6,125 nucleotides of DNA from Candidatus Wukongarchaeum yapensis (GCA_016840425.1 JAEOSI010000142.1:1-6125), one strand, 5' to 3'. Positions 2 to 6,125 are shown, counted from the first letter of the stretch. Notes: generated by a model not told the origin, from the letters alone. Made by a program: numbers and translations.

Positions 2-741
2 TTACTGCCTTTGCTAGCCCTTTTGATAACATTAAGCATTATTCCATCGGCACGGGCAACAGATACACGAGAACTGGAACCGGTTGCTGATTCATACGTT
101 AACATCGACCATCCAGACACTAATTACGGTAACTATTCTTGGCTATCTCTTGAGAGCCACTATATGATGGATGAACTTTCATACAATAAATTTGACTTGT
201 CGATCCTTCCAGAAGACGCTGTGATAGAGAAAGTGACGCTATATTTGCACGTAGGTTGGCTTAGCGACCCTGAAGAAGTCATAGTTTGCAATTCTGGTAC
301 AGATTGGTCGGAAATGGAAATAACGTGGAACAATAGACCCGGTTATGAACAAACACCTACTGATATAGTCTACGTAAGTTATGGTGAAAAGTGGTATTCT
401 TAGGATGTGACGGCAGACATTACAACGAATAAGGCTTACTTTTGGGCAATTCTCTTCGACTTACCGACTATACATGGTTGGCCTGATATGGACTTTGACT
501 CATCAGCAGAATGGACGAAGGCTTAAAACCGTACTTGGCCATCGAAGACTCGTATCTTGGAGTTTTAGGTTTTTCGCCTAGCATTTTCACATCGTTAGTA
601 GTGATAGGCGCAATAGTAGTAGTTTTTGCAATGGTGTTTGCGGAAAAACCGTCAGCAGGCCGTTTGAAGTTCGATATTTTGATTTGTGTATTAAAGGCGC
701 AAAAATTATGCGGGAAGAAACGAACTCAAACAAAAATGTAA
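2..741 (+). pseudogene. Disrupted secreted/membrane-anchored DNRLRE-domain (CBM96-like) surface protein; 5' end lies outside the window
   Basis: The frame is open from position 2 (LLPLLALLITLSIIPSARA, signal-peptide-like). Family motifs follow: ADSYV..HPDTNYG, SY.KFDLSILP..AVIEKVTLYL, DWSEMEITWNNRP. TAG at 401-403 interrupts WYS*DVT, where the family usually has W. The frame continues to DFDSSAEW and stops at TAA 524-526. The closing motif KPYLAIE and a hydrophobic anchor (SIFTSLVVIGAIVVVFAMVF) are in a different frame (511-741). Confidence 0.75.
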
Positions 742-1054
742 AAAAACAGAGAAAAAGGAAAATGGTGAGCCTTATAAAAATGCGGTTAGATATTGGATAA
801 ATAAAATAAATAAGGTTGAGAAAACCTCGAATTTTAAGCCTCAAGAAGCTTTAGGATTTTTAACCAGTTCAAGCAGTAGAGGGTTATTTGTAGTAGTAAT
901 TTTGTGGATAAGCGAAACGAATAATTGGCCTAGAAATATCGTGATACCTGTCATAGTGATAATCGTTCTAATTTTTCCTTTTTTGGAACTTTTTTTAATA
1001 GATTTAAGGAGAAAGGGAAGGAGGCAGTATGAGGAGTTCACGAATACGGTCTGA
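708..1054 (+). pseudogene. Frameshifted (or recoded) small two-TM membrane protein of about 115 aa, not in the ORF track
   Basis: ATG at 708 reads MREETNSNKNVKK and stops at 798-800. The -1 frame is open from 695 to TGA at 1052-1054 without an ATG. Joining at the A7 run (740-746) gives MREETNSNKNVKKTEKKENGEPYKNAVRYWINKINKVEKTSNFKPQEALGFLTSSSSRGLFVVVILWISETNNWPRNIVIPVIVIIVLIFPFLELFLIDLRRKGRRQYEEFTNTV: charged N-terminus, two hydrophobic segments, basic tail. Confidence 0.5.
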
Positions 1055-2101
1055 TGGAAGCCCTGCTTCTATGCCTAACGCAATAGCTCTAAGGTTTCTA
1101 ATCTCGAAATAGACTAAGTTATAGTAACCAGCGATCATTCCAAGGTGTAAAGGTGAAAGTTTGAACTGTTCAATGCTTTTTTCCAGAACCATGCGTTTCA
1201 AGTTATGCTCTAAAGCAAAAAAGCTTCCACTCTCAGCATAACCTCCTCGGAAAGCCTCTATGTAAGGCACATAATCACGGATTTTTAAAAGAAATTGAAA
1301 GGCGTCATCTAAGCTTTCAGAAAGGATAACCTCCTCTAATAAGCTTTCAGAAACGTTGTAATAAATAGGGATTAAATATCGTTTTATATCTTTTAAGTCT
1401 ATACCAAGGCTCTTACAACGGAAAATGGTTACTATGTTTTGAGCATCAATTTCTGAACCAACGAGTATGCTAACCCTTTCTCTTTCACTTTTACCCAGCT
1501 TTTGAACGTATTCCCATAGAATAGGGAACACGAAATAATCAATTGCAGTTTCCCATTCTACAATCTCTGAAGCTTCAAGTAATCCTTTTTTATAAACCTC
1601 TCTTAAGGAAGGATAATATTTGCGAGCGTTTATTTTTATAACCTCTAGAAACTCTTCAAAAGAAGTAGCACTAGTAATCCTAGAAAGAACTTCCTGAGTA
1701 AAAATGCCGACAGGAATTACCGAGGATAAAACTTCTTCTGGATCTATTTTACTGAGAAATCCTCGGATAACGGCTTTCAAAGTCTCGGCTTCAAATTTTG
1801 TCAAGAACTGGTCTAAAAAGTCTCTGACTATGCCTGTAGAAACTTTCATTATTTGCAAAACACTTGAGAAGAAATGTTGGGATAGGGCGCTCTCAATGGA
1901 GTTAGCAGATAATTTATCTGCTTCAATTTTTAGGAGCTCTTCGCGATAAGGAGTAATATCTAAGAAGGAAACAAGTTCTCCAAGGGAACGCATCTCAGCT
2001 AAACTACGCAGATCCCAAGGAGATAATAATTTTGCCTTCCTAACTGCAATTTTAGAAAGGGTGTAACCATGACTAATTAGGTAACTAAACGAACTTGGCA
2101 T
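1004..2101 (-). CDS. atpC: A/V-type ATP synthase subunit C (homolog of V0 subunit d)
   Basis: 365 aa ORF. N-terminal GYTLSKIAVRKAKLL...LGELVSFLDITPY, central KFEAETLKAVIRG and DAQNIVTIFRCKSLG, and C-terminal EIRNLRAIALGIEAGLPSDRIRELLI are typical of AtpC/NtpC. It lies downstream of atpI-atpK and has an SD-like GGAGTGG 6 nt before the ATG. Confidence 0.93.
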   Translation of the reverse strand: MPSSFSYLISHGYTLSKIAVRKAKLLSPWDLRSLAEMRSLGELVSFLDITPYREELLKIEADKLSANSIESALSQHFFSSVLQIMKVSTGIVRDFLDQFLTKFEAETLKAVIRGFLSKIDPEEVLSSVIPVGIFTQEVLSRITSATSFEEFLEVIKINARKYYPSLREVYKKGLLEASEIVEWETAIDYFVFPILWEYVQKLGKSERERVSILVGSEIDAQNIVTIFRCKSLGIDLKDIKRYLIPIYYNVSESLLEEVILSESLDDAFQFLLKIRDYVPYIEAFRGGYAESGSFFALEHNLKRMVLEKSIEQFKLSPLHLGMIAGYYNLVYFEIRNLRAIALGIEAGLPSDRIRELLILPPSLSP

Positions 2102-2107
2102 ATTAAA

Positions 2108-2114
2108 CCACTCC
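2108..2114 (-). promoter_or_regulatory. Shine-Dalgarno site of atpC
   Basis: Minus strand reads GGAGTGG-TTTAAT-ATG(2101). Confidence 0.7.
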
Positions 2115-2130
2115 AGGTATATAGTTAATA

Positions 2131-2184
2131 GAAGAAAAGAAAAAAATTCGAGAGCGCTACAGCAGGCAAAGCCGCGTCAGCGCT
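2131..2184 (-). terminator. GC-rich hairpin plus U-tract between atpK and atpC (terminator/attenuator or mRNA stability element)
   Basis: Minus-strand RNA AGCGCU-G-AC-GC-GGC-UUU-GCC-U-GC-U-GU-AGCGCU (2184-2153) folds to 13 bp with three single-base bulges. It is followed by CUCGAAUUUUUUUCUUUUCUUC (to 2131). Confidence 0.6.
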
Positions 2185-2195
2185 ATAAGTGAAAG

Positions 2196-2678
2196 TTATG
2201 GCAAAGAAGAAACCATTAGGAAACTTATGATTAAGCCGTAAATTGCTAGTGCTTCGCTAAGAACCACCGGAATCAAACTCATAACGAATAGGTCAGGGTC
2301 TTCTGCTGTAGCTTTAGCGTTGCTACTACCAGCATATCCGATAGCTATACCCGCAAAAAGTGCAGCAAACCCCATAGTTAACCCAGCCCACATCAGGGCA
2401 GGAGCACCGTTTTTAAATTCCTCGGAAGCGACATCATCAGGAAAGTATCCAGTATACCATGAGAGCCCTAAGAAAGCTATTATGAGGCCATATATTCCAA
2501 GTGCTTCAGCTAAGACAGTGCTGATTATCATTTTCGACGATTGCTCTTTTCTCTCGGTCATAGAGCCGCCAATTGAGGGGGATGAAAGCCCGATACCAAA
2601 AGCTGCTCCAGCTAAACTTAAAAATATGGCTGCACTAATGCCTACAGCTCCTTGAACAATCGGATCACCAAACACCAT
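2196..2678 (-). CDS. atpK: A/V-type ATP synthase proteolipid subunit K/c, duplicated four-TM form
   Basis: 160 aa with four hydrophobic helices in two hairpin repeats: VLAE58ALGIYGLII and VLSE142ALAIYGLII. Gly/Ala-rich helices 1 and 3. Located between atpI and atpC. Confidence 0.96.
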   Translation of the reverse strand: MVFGDPIVQGAVGISAAIFLSLAGAAFGIGLSSPSIGGSMTERKEQSSKMIISTVLAEALGIYGLIIAFLGLSWYTGYFPDDVASEEFKNGAPALMWAGLTMGFAALFAGIAIGYAGSSNAKATAEDPDLFVMSLIPVVLSEALAIYGLIISFLMVSSLP

Positions 2679-2684
2679 ATTTAA

Positions 2685-2693
2685 CCAACTCCT
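2685..2693 (-). promoter_or_regulatory. Shine-Dalgarno site of atpK
   Basis: Minus strand reads AGGAGTTGG-TTAAAT-ATG(2678). Confidence 0.65.
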
Positions 2694-2750
2694 ACTTAAT
2701 TATTCATTACATATACCATTTTTTTGATTACTTTGAAATCAATAAATTAG

Positions 2751-4955
2751 TTACTTAATTGCGGTAAATTCACGCTTAATAGTAAAGGGTTCATATTTGT
2801 ATCCATCAAAATTCAAACCCAATTTGCTGAAAAACTCGACCCACTGTAACCTGAGGCTGTGCAAGAGCGAAACCAAGGTTTCCAGCACGATGACTAGGAT
2901 GTTTCCGATGAGGAGGATTGGGACGCTTACAGGGGTTATTCCTTCTCCAGCCATTTCTATGAAAACAGCCATGAGTGTGATGTGGGCAAGGTTTAAAGCG
3001 AAAAGCCGTATATAACTTGCGGTGTTCCCAATACTACTTAGAGTCCCTTCAACAGCCTCTATAGCAGAATGACCTAAAGCAATTTTAGCCATTGCAGCAT
3101 CGCGATATAAGAGGATTTCTGCTATTCCTACGCCAAAAAACATCCCTAAGAGGCTAAGTATAGCAACATAAAACAATGGGGTGCCCGTTAAAATATTCAT
3201 GAAGGTATTAATAGCTCCTTCATGATCTTTATCAAAAAGCTCCCAATATCCTTCAAGATCCACAAGAGACCAGAGAATTAAAACCCCTAAAACTCCAAAA
3301 GTACTGGCATAAAAGACGAGCCAGCTAATGGAACCCACGACTTCTGCAAACTCGCCCTGTTTAATCTTATTATAAACATTTAACACAAGGCCGATCAATA
3401 TATGAATGACTCCTATGACAATAGCAAGTTTAATTTTAAACTTGTTAAATTGTGTTTCATCATGTTCTACCAGATGAAACATCTTTTCGCTTAGCATGTA
3501 ACGCATTAGTGGAAAATGCTTTTTAGTACTGGGTATTTTTTCGGTGAGATGATATCCAAAAATTTCGCCGAAAAAGAAACCGAAAAATATAGAAAAGATT
3601 CCGCAAAGAATAATAGCCTCTGCACCATTAAAGATCATTTTACCTATATCGCCCTTAATTTTCTTCGTTTTTCTAACATGTAGGGCCCATAAACCAACGA
3701 GTAAAAGAATAAGACCATGGCCTACATCAGGAAACATTATGCCAAAAAATATGGGGAAAGATAGTGCGACGAAAATACCAGGATTGATCTCGCGATGGGA
3801 GGGTACACCATAAGCATTAACGATTCCTTGAAAGGGTTGTATCATAGAAGGGAACTTGAAGTTGGAAGGAGGGGGGTCATTTTCGCCTTCATCATGACCA
3901 TGTTTTCCAGGATTGTTAGAAGAAGAAACGCTTTTTTCTTCTTTTTGAGAGTGGTTTTTATGCTTGGAAAAACCATTCCCTTTTAAAGCGATCATGGTAA
4001 CAGTGCCATAGGTGATTTCTTCAATCGATTTCTTTAAATCATCAAGGTTTTCTTCGGGAACCCAACCTTCGATCATTAAAGTTTTTTCTGTGCGGCCAAA
4101 CTTTTCCCTGCCTTCAGCTTTAATCCTTTCGATTTCTACAGCTTCTTTTAAAACGCACAGTTCTTTTCCTTTTTCCTTTGCTATTGATTCTAATGAAGCT
4201 TCAAGCTCCATGAGACGTTTTTCATCTTCTTTAAGCTTCTTTTCTATTTCTGGTAAAACTTTGTTAGGATCTGCATCAAACTCGTCTACAGGTTTTAGTT
4301 CTTGAAAATCAAAAAGGGAAAGGTTTTTCTGCACAATTCCTTTAAAAGGGGATAAAGAACTAATAAGAACGACTTGTCTTTCAGCAAATTCTTTCCCTTT
4401 TAGGAGGAGGATGTTGTTATAAGTGTCTTTACTTAATTTCTTTTCTAATTCTGGAAGTAAACGTGAGGGAGCTGTTCCGAAAAAAACTGCTAACATGGAA
4501 GTAGAACGAATTTCATAAGCAGTTATTTTAAAAGAGAGAAGGGCTTCATAAACGCGTTTAAGTTTGCTTAAACGTTCAGATTCTTCCTTAAGCGAATTGA
4601 TATTGGAAATGATTTTTTCAGTTTCCTTTTTAATTTTAGTAACCCTCTCTGCGAGATGATCAATCATTTGTTTTGGAGGTAAACGCTCAAAAACTTCACA
4701 AGAATCAACTATAACACTTTCTTCGTCCATGGCTAGGAGATCAAACGTATTTTTAACGTCTTTAAGGATTTCATTGGCTCTTCTTAAAGCATAAAATTCT
4801 TCCTTAGGCCTAACTTCGCCTTTATAAAGGCTAAGCTTTTTTCGTAGATCTGAAAGGTGTAAAACACCTTTTGCGGAGAGCATGTCGACAACATCTTCAA
4901 CATATTTTTCCAGCACTAATAGTTGGATTTTTACCATTGGTTCGGCGTATAACAT
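2751..4955 (-). CDS. atpI: A/V-type ATP synthase subunit I (subunit a)
   Basis: 734 aa. Soluble coiled-coil N-half with IEGWVP, then PFQGIVNAYGVPSHREINP, FPIFFGIMFPDVGHG, the essential-Arg motif NTASYIRLFALNLAH (Arg codon 3006-3008) and C-terminal HSLRLQWVEFFSK...GYKYEPF. Confidence 0.97.
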   Translation of the reverse strand: MLYAEPMVKIQLLVLEKYVEDVVDMLSAKGVLHLSDLRKKLSLYKGEVRPKEEFYALRRANEILKDVKNTFDLLAMDEESVIVDSCEVFERLPPKQMIDHLAERVTKIKKETEKIISNINSLKEESERLSKLKRVYEALLSFKITAYEIRSTSMLAVFFGTAPSRLLPELEKKLSKDTYNNILLLKGKEFAERQVVLISSLSPFKGIVQKNLSLFDFQELKPVDEFDADPNKVLPEIEKKLKEDEKRLMELEASLESIAKEKGKELCVLKEAVEIERIKAEGREKFGRTEKTLMIEGWVPEENLDDLKKSIEEITYGTVTMIALKGNGFSKHKNHSQKEEKSVSSSNNPGKHGHDEGENDPPPSNFKFPSMIQPFQGIVNAYGVPSHREINPGIFVALSFPIFFGIMFPDVGHGLILLLVGLWALHVRKTKKIKGDIGKMIFNGAEAIILCGIFSIFFGFFFGEIFGYHLTEKIPSTKKHFPLMRYMLSEKMFHLVEHDETQFNKFKIKLAIVIGVIHILIGLVLNVYNKIKQGEFAEVVGSISWLVFYASTFGVLGVLILWSLVDLEGYWELFDKDHEGAINTFMNILTGTPLFYVAILSLLGMFFGVGIAEILLYRDAAMAKIALGHSAIEAVEGTLSSIGNTASYIRLFALNLAHITLMAVFIEMAGEGITPVSVPILLIGNILVIVLETLVSLLHSLRLQWVEFFSKLGLNFDGYKYEPFTIKREFTAIK

Positions 4956-4960
4956 TTGGA

Positions 4961-4966
4961 CACCTC
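4961..4966 (-). promoter_or_regulatory. Shine-Dalgarno site of atpI
   Basis: Minus strand reads GAGGTG-TCCAA-ATG(4955), an archaeal-type SD. Confidence 0.8.
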
Positions 4967-4990
4967 ATCTCGCCTAGGAACAGATTTAGG

Positions 4991-5013
4991 GGCTTAGTTA
5001 AAGCCTTTTTGAC
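4991..5013 (-). promoter_or_regulatory. Candidate BRE/TATA promoter of the atpI-K-C unit, overlapped by a short inverted repeat
   Basis: Minus strand reads GTCAAAAAGGC-TTTAACTAAGCC: a purine run then a TTTAA box about 45 nt upstream of the ATG. GGCTT-N5-AAGCC (4991-5005) is an inverted repeat. Other AT-rich boxes upstream are equally possible. Confidence 0.3.
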
Positions 5014-5186
5014 AAAATGGGGATGGGAACAATCTATTATAATTGCTTTTATTTGACATATATCTATTTTACCGGTATAAAGGATGAATCTTTTTAGAAT
5101 AGTGTAAAACACTATTTTTAATATTTATGGATAACCATTCTGAGTATAAAAAATAGAAATACAAATATTGATTAAGAAAAATTGAT

Positions 5187-5219
5187 AAACGCGATCAAGA
5201 ATAAAACGCTCAAGAATAA
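5187..5219 (+). repeat. Imperfect tandem duplication just upstream of the AtpZ-like gene
   Basis: AAACGCGATCAAGAATA (5187-5203) is followed directly by AAACGCTCAAGAATA (5204-5218). TCAAGAATAA is exact at 5195-5204 and 5210-5219. Confidence 0.7.
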
Positions 5220-5237
5220 TTTAAAAGAGTGATAAAA

Positions 5238-5570
5238 ATGGGCGAAAACGAAGAAAACAAAGAAGAAACTTCTGGTGAAAGTATTATCGATAAAGAAGTT
5301 ATGGCAGCAATAAAAAGAAAAACGGAACTAAGGGAAGAAGAACAAAGAACAAGTAGGTTTATGGAAAGACCAGGAAGAGAGATATCGGATGCCCTTTATT
5401 ATGGTACGAGTATACCTATATTGTCGGTAGTTGGAGCGCTTATAGGGTGGTATTTAACTCGGGATTCGAGCGCAACTTTAAAAGTTTTAGGCGTCGCAGG
5501 CGGAGCCATTCTTGGACTATTATGGGGATTATTTGAAATAATCAGAAAAGAACAGAAAAAAAGCTACTAA
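5238..5570 (+). CDS. AtpZ/AtpI-like (ATPase_gene1-type) two-TM membrane protein, about 110 aa
   Basis: Acidic/charged N-terminus, then helix GTSIPILSVVGALIGWYL, a short loop, helix VLGVAGGAILGLLWGLFEII and a basic tail RKEQKK. The Gly spacing resembles the AtpZ family, and the gene is flanked by ATPase genes. ATG 5238 is preferred over GTG 5229 because GAGTGA (5227-5232) fits as its SD. Confidence 0.65.
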   Translation: MGENEENKEETSGESIIDKEVMAAIKRKTELREEEQRTSRFMERPGREISDALYYGTSIPILSVVGALIGWYLTRDSSATLKVLGVAGGAILGLLWGLFEIIRKEQKKSY

Positions 5571-5945: not shown

Positions 5946-6125
5946 TTACCCGATGGAAATTGTACCGAACAACAGAATAGCGATGACTAGACCGTAAATA
6001 GCAATAGCTTCCATCATAACGATGAAGATCATGGATTTACCGAAAACTTCTGGTTTTTCTGTTATAGCTCCAATTGCCGCAGCAGAAGCATTACCCATTC
6101 CGACACCAGCACCTAGACCAGCAAG
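5946..6125 (-). CDS. atpK: Second A/V-type ATP synthase proteolipid subunit K/c, C-terminal 59 aa (5' truncated by the window edge; absent from the ORF track)
   Basis: Translation from 6125: LAGLGAGVGMGNASAAAIGAITEKPEVFGKSMIFIVMMEAIAIYGLVIAILLFGTISIG*, TAA at 5948-5946. It has the GxGxGxG helix, the polar EKPE loop and the ion-binding E-A-I-A-I-Y-G motif. Confidence 0.95.
   Translation of the reverse strand, partial: LAGLGAGVGMGNASAAAIGAITEKPEVFGKSMIFIVMMEAIAIYGLVIAILLFGTISIG

What the first reader, a model, noticed from the sequence alone, without database searches (positions are those of the whole stretch)
1004..4955. Stand-alone I-K-C (a-c-d) membrane-sector operon with no catalytic or stalk genes
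Seen: atpI, atpK and atpC are co-oriented with 72- and 94-nt gaps. There is no room for atpE between K and C. The upstream neighbour is divergent (no atpH/G) and the downstream neighbour is convergent (no atpF/A/B/D). Established: the common euryarchaeal order is H-I-K-E-C-F-A-B-D, and a, c, d are the conserved core of the eukaryotic V0 sector, which assembles separately from V1. Inference: A0 and A1 are transcribed separately here, allowing separate regulation or assembly, or this is an alternative A0 module that docks on a shared A1.
Basis: partly seen in the sequence, partly recalled or inferred. Interest (0 to 1): 0.65.

Follow-up and report, generated by a model that had tools for sequence, protein, structure and literature searches.

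The report
Second, eukaryote-like ATPase membrane sector
An Asgard archaeon carries two very different gene sets for the membrane half of its rotary ATPase side by side but only one set for the ATP-handling head, and the set in this window looks like the closest prokaryotic relative found here of the membrane half of the eukaryotic vacuolar proton pump.

Summary
The three genes are real, at the stated coordinates and gaps: I2/a (2751-4955), K2/c (2196-2678) and C2/d (1004-2101), all on the minus strand. "Stand-alone" is only half right. The window is a whole 6.1-kb contig of a metagenome bin. Its far end holds the tail of another c gene, and a 144-nt exact overlap joins it to a contig carrying a second set, I1-C1-K1. 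An unbroken contig of a sister genome and a metagenome contig show the same tandem layout.

The two sets are only 24-28% identical, and both are under purifying selection. The genome has 2 a, 3 d and 4 c genes, but one each of A, B, D, E and F, all dispersed. Encoding the membrane sector apart from the head is routine in several Asgard families. The second set is not.

An alternative membrane sector sharing one head is therefore the best reading. This is inferred from gene counts.

New here: I2 groups with eukaryotic V0 subunit a. K2 shares the same hairpin duplication as the eukaryotic 16-kDa proteolipid but keeps both glutamates. The d subunit is inconclusive. I found no published description. 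Other notes of this scan cover the same genome's c genes and its extra C-K pair.

The parts
2751..4955 (-). I2: subunit a/I (stator, ion half-channels), 734 aa, with the stator arginine R650 in the motif NTASYIRLFALNLAH
   Evidence: PF01496 E 5e-65. Arg motif aligned with eukaryotic HTASYLRLWALSLAH. 28% identical to I1. dN/dS 0.20-0.33. Groups with eukaryotic subunit a.
2196..2678 (-). K2: four-helix (double-hairpin) proteolipid c, 160 aa, with a glutamate in both hairpins (E58, E142)
   Evidence: Two PF00137 hits. Best solved relatives are eukaryotic c'' (74 bits) and c (69 bits), against 38 bits for the E. hirae K. Its N- and C-hairpins fall in the eukaryotic N- and C-hairpin clades. dN/dS 0.12-0.25.
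1004..2101 (-). C2: subunit d/C (socket between the c-ring and the central shaft), 365 aa
   Evidence: PF01992 E 1e-59. 24% identical to C1. Best non-genus relatives are 32-35% identical. Among solved structures it hits only eukaryotic d, weakly at 32-33 bits. dN/dS 0.25-0.34.
2130..2184 (-). Hairpin (2153-2184) followed by a U7-C-U4 run (2130-2146) just after the K2 stop: a possible partial terminator that would give more K2 than C2 transcript
   Evidence: Sequence. Fold -15.3 kcal/mol, z -2.2 against shuffles. Function inferred only.
4956..5228 (.). A+T-rich divergent intergenic region upstream of I2, with a GAGGTG ribosome-binding site at 4961-4966; the presumed promoter region of the I2 module
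   Evidence: Sequence read directly. No archaeal promoter tool was available, so the promoter itself is not shown.
5229..5570 (+). orf113: small membrane protein between the two modules; weak relatives sit beside I-C-K clusters of other Asgard families
   Evidence: 92% and 69% identical orthologues at the same place in G002 and the SMTZ contig. phmmer hits of 20-36 bits to small ORFs next to I-C-K or C-K in f5, f16 and f30. Weak AtpZ/AtpI-like lead (Atlas score 0.82). No Pfam hit.
5946..6125 (-). 3' part of K1, the single-hairpin proteolipid of the neighbouring I1-C1-K1 module, cut by the contig end
   Evidence: PF00137 E 6e-18. 144-nt exact overlap with the end of C142. The full gene is 111 aa.
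660..1051 (+). Convergent downstream neighbour: a homologue of a 207-aa G002 protein, in two reading frames (frameshift near 760)
   Evidence: tblastn: residues 77-110 match 660-761 and residues 110-207 match 758-1051, at 71-74% identity.

Best explanation
The window encodes a complete, functional second membrane sector of the cell's rotary A/V-type ATPase. Its parts are a stator subunit a (I2) with the essential arginine, a rotor ring built of four-helix proteolipids (K2) with two ion-binding glutamates each, and the rotor socket d (C2). It lies directly downstream of the lineage's ordinary Asgard-type sector (I1-C1-K1).

The genome holds only one dispersed set of head and stalk genes (A, B, D, E, F). 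The most likely working is therefore that the same A1 head assembles with either sector, giving two enzyme forms that differ in stator, ring and socket, much as eukaryotic cells combine one V1 with alternative a, d and c isoforms. What differs between the forms (ring size and ion/ATP ratio, direction of work, conditions of expression, or place in the cell) is not known. A hairpin plus U-run after K2 may raise the K2:C2 transcript ratio.

In evolutionary terms this module is not a recent copy of the first one. It is an old lineage whose a and c subunits are the nearest prokaryotic relatives of the eukaryotic V0 a and c found here.

Shown: gene identity, the tandem layout, the gene counts, purifying selection and the tree positions. 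Inferred: sharing of the head and the existence of two enzyme forms.
For: Gene identity and key residues.

Tandem layout: seen in three independent assemblies.

Gene counts in G000 (92% complete): 2 I, 3 d, 4 c (7 PF00137 stretches), one each of A, B, D, E, F, on separate contigs among unrelated genes. The sister genome G002 also has 3 d genes and a single B.

Selection: dN/dS 0.12-0.34 for I2, K2 and C2.

Not a recent duplicate: 24-28% identity. The AU test rejects I2 as sister of I1 (delta lnL 71).

Eukaryotic affinity of I2:
- It groups with 13 eukaryotic a subunits (SH-aLRT 98, joint branch 0.42).
- A eukaryotic-a profile scores the I2 clade highest of 52 prokaryotic I proteins (244-250 bits, next 217).
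- With the fastest 30% of sites removed, the alternative is rejected (p-AU 0.015).

Eukaryotic affinity of K2:
- The whole-protein tree places it with eukaryotic c/c''.
- A eukaryotic-c profile gives 77-92 bits, against 23-51 for other double hairpins.
- In split-hairpin trees the N halves group with eukaryotic N halves (99/97 and 99/94) and the C halves with eukaryotic C halves (96/76 and 82/82). The double hairpins of f28, f6, f22 and f14 and of bacteria do not.
Against: - No expression, protein or assembly data exist; sharing of the head rests on gene counts in incomplete bins (92% and 87%).
- With all sites, the AU test does not reject I2 branching with the main Asgard group (p 0.18). In the slow-site test the site rates were estimated on the free tree.
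- Both I2 and the eukaryotes are long branches, and each alone attaches near the centre of the tree.
- The hairpin trees rest on about 70 columns.
- For d the evidence is neutral. C2 hits eukaryotic d at only 32 bits, while a broad Asgard d profile reaches 47 bits on eukaryotic d and 54 on Thermus C. No eukaryotic d sequence could be brought into a tree.
- K2 keeps both glutamates, unlike every eukaryotic c, and no V1 C or H homologue was found.
- G001, the only other family of the same class sampled, lacks this module.
Confidence: 0.6

Rival explanations
1. Routine arrangement: the I-K-C cluster is simply how this phylum encodes its one ATPase, and the extra copies are ordinary redundant paralogues without a separate role.
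For: Membrane-sector clusters without head genes are common in Asgard families: I-C-K or C-K in f4, f5, f16, f30 and f33. A and B lie on separate contigs in f28 and f30. Extra C-K pairs also exist in f30 and in this genus (C138).
Against: The two modules are 24-28% identical, differ in gene order (I-C-K against I-K-C) and in the type of c subunit (single against double hairpin), and both are under purifying selection. In 400 Asgard genomes, close I2 and C2 relatives occur only in this genus. A recent duplication is rejected.
Confidence: 0.12
2. There is a second head: each module has its own A1, and the second set of A, B, D, E and F genes was missed by binning or assembly.
For: The bins are 92% and 87% complete. 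G001, of the same class, does have two A/B pairs, one in a classic I-E-C-F-A-B-D operon. If the second head were one operon on one unbinned contig, it could be lost in one step.
Against: Neither G000 nor G002 shows a second A or B. In this genus the head genes are dispersed, so five separate losses would be needed if the second set were dispersed too. G001's extra operon brings its own very different I and d genes (I1 scores 71 bits and C2 32 bits against them) and is unrelated to I2-K2-C2.
Confidence: 0.1
3. Mixed assemblies: the paralogues do not form two separate sectors but mix, for example as heteromeric c-rings (K1/K3 with K2/K4) or swapped d subunits, as in the c/c'/c'' ring of eukaryotes or the mixed ring of Acetobacterium woodii.
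For: There are four c genes of two types and three d genes. K4, 76% identical to K2, stands alone on C194. In the SMTZ contig the c of the module is nearer to K4 (87%) than to K2. Mixed rings are known (10.64898/2026.10.01.756066, read).
Against: Each module carries its own a, c and d genes in one cluster, conserved in three assemblies, which fits co-adapted sets. Nothing tested here speaks directly for or against mixing.
Confidence: 0.13
4. The grouping with eukaryotes is an artefact: I2-K2-C2 is just a fast-evolving Asgard paralogue, pulled towards the long eukaryotic branch.
For: The stems are long (0.94 and 1.39). Each group alone attaches near the centre of the tree. With all sites the alternative is not rejected (p-AU 0.18). 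The d subunit shows no clear eukaryotic affinity.
Against: A merely fast protein should lose similarity to everything. Yet I2 scores highest of all sampled prokaryotic I proteins on a eukaryotic profile. The joint branch is long (0.42). The signal grows when fast sites are removed. An independent gene, K2, gives the same answer for both of its halves.
Confidence: 0.3

Closest known systems
Eukaryotic V-ATPase V0 sector (subunits a, c/c'/c'', d; e.g. yeast 3J9T/6O7T, human 6WLW)
   Same: The same three core parts. I2 carries the a-subunit arginine motif and groups with eukaryotic a. K2 is a four-helix proteolipid that shares the eukaryotic hairpin duplication. There are several a, d and c isoforms beside a single head, and the head genes are dispersed in the genome.
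   Different: K2 keeps the glutamate in both hairpins, whereas eukaryotic c keeps only the second and c'' only the first. No five-helix c'' and no V1 C or H homologue was found (weak test). The genes are clustered and co-oriented. Whether the enzyme pumps or synthesises is unknown.
Ordinary Asgard membrane-sector cluster I-C-K (this genome's I1-C1-K1; f30, f5)
   Same: A cluster of a, d and c genes without head genes. It shares the same flanking small membrane ORF and lies in the same genome.
   Different: The gene order is I-K-C, not I-C-K. The c subunit is a double hairpin of 160 aa, not a 110-130-aa single hairpin with an N-terminal extension. Identity is 24-28%. Close relatives occur only in this genus.
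Duplicated archaeal K subunits with both carboxylates (methanogen type) and bacterial or Pyrococcus four-helix K with one site (E. hirae NtpK, 2BL2)
   Same: Four helices from a hairpin duplication. The methanogen type also keeps two ion sites (background from 10.64898/2026.10.01.756066).
   Different: In the split-hairpin trees the bacterial-type halves, and those of the Asgard families f28, f6, f22 and f14, do not join the K2/eukaryote hairpin clades. These are therefore separate duplications. Methanogen sequences themselves were not in my trees.
Classic euryarchaeal or bacterial operon H-I-K-E-C-F-A-B-D (ntp/aha type)
   Same: Homologous I, K and C genes, with I followed by K.
   Different: There are no E, F, A, B or D genes in or next to the cluster. 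Such an operon does exist in the related genome G001 (L090), but with unrelated I and d sequences.

Membership tests
A/V-type rotary ATPase membrane sector (A0/V0) | Subunit a/I of family PF01496 with the conserved stator arginine in the penultimate helix | tested here: met
   PF01496 E 5e-65. R650 in SYIRLFALNLAH aligns with the arginine of the eukaryotic and archaeal sequences.
A/V-type rotary ATPase membrane sector (A0/V0) | Proteolipid c of family PF00137 with a membrane-buried carboxylate | tested here: met
   Two PF00137 stretches. E58 and E142 lie in the ...LAEAL.IYG... motifs.
A/V-type rotary ATPase membrane sector (A0/V0) | Subunit d/C of family PF01992 | tested here: met
   PF01992 E 1e-59, covering 17-355 of 365 residues.
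A/V-type rotary ATPase membrane sector (A0/V0) | Physical assembly with an A1/V1 head | not testable with these tools
   Only gene counts are available: one A, B, D, E and F.
Eukaryotic-type V0 (V-ATPase) | Four-helix c derived from the same hairpin duplication as the 16-kDa proteolipid | tested here: met
   The N- and C-hairpins of K2 fall in the eukaryotic N- and C-hairpin clades (99/97, 96/76; 99/94, 82/82). About 70 columns.
Eukaryotic-type V0 (V-ATPase) | Only one carboxylate per four-helix c subunit | tested here: not met
   K2, K4 and their orthologues keep Glu in both hairpins.
Eukaryotic-type V0 (V-ATPase) | Subunit a nearest to eukaryotic a in trees | tested here: inconclusive
   The free trees group them. 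The AU test does not reject the alternative with all sites (p 0.18) but does with slow sites (p 0.015).
Eukaryotic-type V0 (V-ATPase) | Subunit d nearest to eukaryotic d | tested here: inconclusive
   The C2 profile hits only eukaryotic d, at 32 bits. A broad Asgard profile reaches 47 bits on eukaryotic d and 54 on Thermus C. No tree with eukaryotes was possible.
Eukaryotic-type V0 (V-ATPase) | V1 subunits C (PF03223) and H (PF03224) present in the genome | tested here: not met
   No match at E 0.01 in G000. The control genomes include no eukaryote, so this is a weak test.
Classic A-type operon (H-I-K-E-C-F-A-B-D) | Head and stalk genes contiguous with I, K and C | tested here: not met
   None in the window, in the joined 26.5-kb stretch or on the G002 contig. 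A, B, D, E and F lie on five other contigs.

The most novel reading that the evidence does not exclude
I2-K2-C2 is a surviving prokaryotic member of the very lineage from which the eukaryotic V0 sector arose. On this reading the split between an 'A-type' and a 'proto-V-type' membrane sector, and the use of one head with alternative membrane sectors, already existed in Asgard archaea before eukaryotes. K2, with both glutamates, shows the ancestral state from which c (which lost the first) and c'' (which lost the second) were derived by reciprocal loss.
Probability: 0.4. Interest if true: 0.85.

Novelty: new variant of a known kind. Interest (0 to 1): 0.72.

Why it matters
How the eukaryotic V-ATPase arose from the archaeal A-type enzyme is still open. 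This includes its four-helix proteolipids, its isoform sets, and a V0 that is made and regulated apart from V1. The published trees I found deal with the head subunits A and B (PMC10656485).

If the reading here holds, a living Asgard lineage offers three things:
- a proteolipid that shares the eukaryotic duplication but still has both ion sites;
- an a subunit on the eukaryotic stem;
- a natural case of one head serving two membrane sectors.

That would make the order of events directly testable by expression, purification and structure work: duplication first, loss of an ion site later, and isoform use before endomembranes.

Tried and rejected
I could not read the gene neighbourhoods of the K2-like proteins P0167-P0171 (one cluster member is labelled Bathyarchaeota archaeon ex4484_205), nor of the 26,485-nt and 24,845-nt contigs listed.
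- The treekit AU test on 49 rows did not finish in two tries, and a first manual run timed out. It was replaced by a 28-row test. The constrained search for 'I2 sister of I1' may not have been fully optimised, but it is 71 log-likelihood units worse.
- No eukaryotic d sequence could be obtained by reference, so no d tree with eukaryotes was made. Profile searches against solved structures were used instead and were uninformative.
- The Atlas look-up of C2 gave only generic PF01992 clusters.
- The sigma-70/terminator scan does not suit archaea and gave nothing above chance.
- Rejected: a pseudogene or relic (dN/dS 0.12-0.34, key residues kept).
- Rejected: a bin chimera (same layout in G002 and the SMTZ contig; contig GC 0.374 against a genome mean of 0.379).
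- Rejected: a recent duplicate of I1-C1-K1.
- Rejected: transfer from crown eukaryotes (the K2 halves branch outside the c+c'' clades and keep both Glu).
- Ion specificity: both the K1 and K2 motifs read E-A, not the E-[STQ]-[STQ] of the Na+ motif quoted. No difference can therefore be claimed.
- Literature searches found no description of Asgard double membrane sectors or of eukaryote-like Asgard proteolipids. This covers only the library held.
Full report
**What is in the window**

Three long ORFs lie on the minus strand. I2 is at 2751-4955 (734 aa), K2 at 2196-2678 (160 aa) and C2 at 1004-2101 (365 aa). Pfam assigns them to V_ATPase_I (E 5e-65), ATP-synt_C (two stretches, so a double hairpin) and vATP-synt_AC39 (E 1e-59). 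NCBIfam agrees but scores far below its equivalog cut-offs, so all three are divergent members. Each gene has a Shine-Dalgarno-like site (GAGGTG, AGGAG, GGAG). I2 keeps the stator arginine (R650, SYIRLFALNLAH). K2 has a glutamate in each hairpin (E58, E142). After the K2 stop comes a hairpin (-15.3 kcal/mol, z -2.2) followed by a U-run. This is a possible partial terminator and nothing more.

The window is the entire contig C146 of a 277-contig bin of 2.16 Mb, 92% complete with 3.3% contamination. Its high end (5946-6125, minus strand) is the 3' part of another c-subunit gene. The last 144 nt are identical to the reverse complement of the end of contig C142. C142 carries a HEAT-repeat gene, then I1 (717 aa), C1 (374 aa) and the start of K1. 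Parts of the overlap also occur in a third c gene on C138, which explains the assembly break.

The join is confirmed independently. Contig C14 of the sister genome G002 (record title 'Candidatus Hodarchaeota archaeon DZ1B.339') reads HEAT-I1-C1-K1-(113-aa ORF on the other strand)-I2-K2-C2-convergent genes without a break. The metagenome contig SMTZ1_10011526 shows C1-K1-(ORF)-I2-K-C2. So the triplet is the second of two tandem membrane-sector modules, and the contig break hides no head or stalk gene.

**Gene inventory**

The genome holds:
- two I genes;
- three d genes: C1, C2, and C3 on C138;
- four c genes: K1; K3 on C138; K2; K4 on C194;
- one each of A (C158), B (C120), D (C189), E (C208) and F (C177), each among unrelated genes.

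C3 and K3 are 78% and 81% identical to C1 and K1. K4 is 76% identical to K2. Between the two sets identity is low: I1/I2 28% and C1/C2 24%. K1 is a single hairpin with an N-terminal hydrophobic extension, while K2 is a double hairpin. G002 also has three d genes and only one B; its A is missing from an 87%-complete bin. dN/dS against G002 and the SMTZ contig is 0.12-0.34 for I2, K2 and C2, and 0.08-0.22 for I1, C1 and K1. Both sets are therefore kept by selection.

**Is the arrangement routine?**

Partly. In other Asgard families the membrane genes also sit apart from the head genes:
- f30 has I-C-K;
- f5 has I-(small ORF)-C-K;
- f4, f16 and f33 have C-K;
- f28 has I-K with d on the other strand.

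A and B lie on different contigs in f28 and in a 100%-complete f30 genome. An extra C-K pair also occurs in f30. Other families differ. In f22, I sits in clusters with B, D and A (transcribed B-D-I-small ORF-A). G001, of the same class, has an A-B pair plus a classic I-E-C-F-A-B-D operon. So 'A0 encoded apart from A1' is ordinary for much of this phylum.

The second module is what is unusual. In 400 Asgard genomes, I2 has close relatives (92%) only in the same genus, and the next best are 32-34% identical. C2 behaves the same way: 90%, then 32%. In the large protein collection the I2 clade has four clusters at 79-100% identity, and the next hit is at 27%.

**Origin of the module: subunit a**

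- Against solved structures, I2 scores 133 bits on eukaryotic subunit a and 65 on Thermus I. I1 scores 112 and 55.
- In trees of 53 and 49 I/a proteins (LG+C20 PMSF, quick search), the I2 clade groups with the eukaryotic a subunits (SH-aLRT 95 and 98). In the 49-row tree the joint branch is 0.42.
- I1 groups with the I of the f30 I-C-K clusters.
- Without eukaryotes, I2 is sister to the main Asgard group. Without I2, the eukaryotes attach weakly in the same central region. This fits either true kinship or two long branches.
- A profile of eukaryotic a subunits scores the I2 clade highest of 52 prokaryotic I proteins: 244-250 bits, then 217, 205 and 198. A merely fast-evolving protein would not do that.
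- AU tests (28 rows, LG+C20+F+G4) reject I2 as sister of I1 (delta lnL 71). They do not reject I2 with the main Asgard group when all 640 columns are used (p 0.18).
- With the fastest 30% of sites removed, that alternative is rejected (p 0.015). The caveat is that the site rates were estimated on the free tree.

**Origin of the module: proteolipid c**

- K2's best solved relatives are eukaryotic c'' (74 bits) and c (69 bits). The double-hairpin K of E. hirae reaches only 38.
- Beyond its own clade and a few unnamed proteins (P0167-P0171), its best hits in the large collection are eukaryotic proteolipids.
- In the whole-protein tree, eukaryotic c/c'' joins P0169/P0171 (94/82). That group then joins the K2 clade plus P0167/P0168 (93/84), apart from f28 and the bacterial types.
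- When every double hairpin is cut in two, the N halves of the K2 clade, P0167 and P0169/P0171 form one clade with the eukaryotic N halves (99/97, then 99/94). The C halves join the eukaryotic C halves (96/76, then 82/82).
- The halves of the f28, f6, f22, f14 and bacterial proteins fall elsewhere.
- K2 therefore shares the eukaryotic hairpin duplication, while still having both glutamates. Eukaryotic c has Gly at the E58 position. Eukaryotic c'' has lost the E142 position. A two-glutamate ancestor like K2 would explain that reciprocal pattern. These trees rest on about 70 columns.

**Origin of the module: subunit d**

I could not obtain eukaryotic d sequences by reference. Profile searches against solved structures are neutral. 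No homologue of the eukaryote-specific V1 subunits C or H was found (a weak test). This is therefore not a eukaryotic-type V-ATPase. At most, its membrane sector lies on that stem.

**Mechanism**

The best-supported reading is that one A1 head serves two alternative membrane sectors, each with its own stator, ring and socket. This rests on gene counts in two incomplete bins, and on the argument that five dispersed genes would not all be missed. It is an inference. Three rivals remain open: an unbinned second head, mixed rings or swapped d subunits, and plain redundancy. What the second sector is for cannot be said from sequence. Both K1 and K2 read E-A after the glutamate, so no Na+/H+ difference can be claimed.

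**Literature and earlier notes**

In the library held I found trees of the A and B subunits that link eukaryotes to Asgard archaea (PMC10656485), and a 2026 preprint on rotary ATPase evolution. I found nothing on double membrane sectors or eukaryote-like proteolipids in Asgard archaea.

Other notes of this scan on the same genome had already flagged four things: the two-glutamate K2, the two kinds of c gene, the small ORF between the modules, and the extra C-K pair on C138. I re-derived each of these here.

**Verdict**

The separate A0 cluster is ordinary for Asgard archaea. The tandem second, eukaryote-like sector beside a single head is a new variant worth following up.

Noticed in passing
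L087:6875-10318 (G103, family f14); also L092-L101: A proteolipid gene of about 1147 aa made of many tandem hairpins follows the I gene in family f14. 15 of 19 f14 genomes have hits, many in open frames of about 1148 aa. This recalls the 13-hairpin c of Methanopyrus kandleri.
   Followed up: partly
L010:4102-6033 (G000 contig C142, just upstream of I1, same strand): A 643-aa HEAT-repeat protein (hits to HEAT, Adaptin_N and Cnd1) lies directly before I1, and is 85% conserved at the same place in G002. The eukaryotic V1 subunit H is also a HEAT/ARM-repeat protein, but no V-ATPase_H Pfam hit was seen and the gene is not next to I in other families.
   Followed up: partly
window 5229-5570 (+); L088:5215-5451; L081:7012-7269; L084:8562-9026: A small membrane ORF recurs beside I-C-K or C-K clusters in several Asgard families (phmmer 20-36 bits), with a weak AtpZ/AtpI-like lead. 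It may be an assembly factor or a small subunit of the membrane sector.
   Followed up: partly
L011:3619-5095 (contig C138) and L012:1130-1609 (contig C194): There is a third d-c pair (C3-K3, 78% and 81% identical to C1 and K1; an NYN-domain gene lies about 1.9 kb upstream on the opposite strand) and a lone fourth c gene (K4, 76% identical to K2). G002 also has a third d gene (contig C33).
   Followed up: partly
L058 (metagenome contig SMTZ1_10011526): The conservation is mosaic. C1 is 95% identical to this genome's, but I2 is 79%, C2 77% and the small ORF 69%, and the module's c is nearer to K4 (87%) than to K2 (77.5%). This suggests recombination, or faster change of the second module.
   Followed up: no
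L090 (G001 contig C40) and L091 (G001 contig C2): G001, the only other family of the same class sampled, has two heads. One A-B pair is close to this genome's. The other sits in a classic I-E-C-F-A-B-D operon with very different sequences, probably acquired from elsewhere. G001 lacks the I2-K2-C2 module.
   Followed up: partly
window 660-1051 (+): The convergent downstream gene matches a 207-aa G002 protein in two reading frames, with a frameshift near base 760 and no match to the first 76 residues. This is either a pseudogene or an assembly error.
   Followed up: partly
window 2-403 (+): The 3' part of a gene with a CBM96 / DNRLRE carbohydrate-binding domain, cut by the contig start.
   Followed up: no
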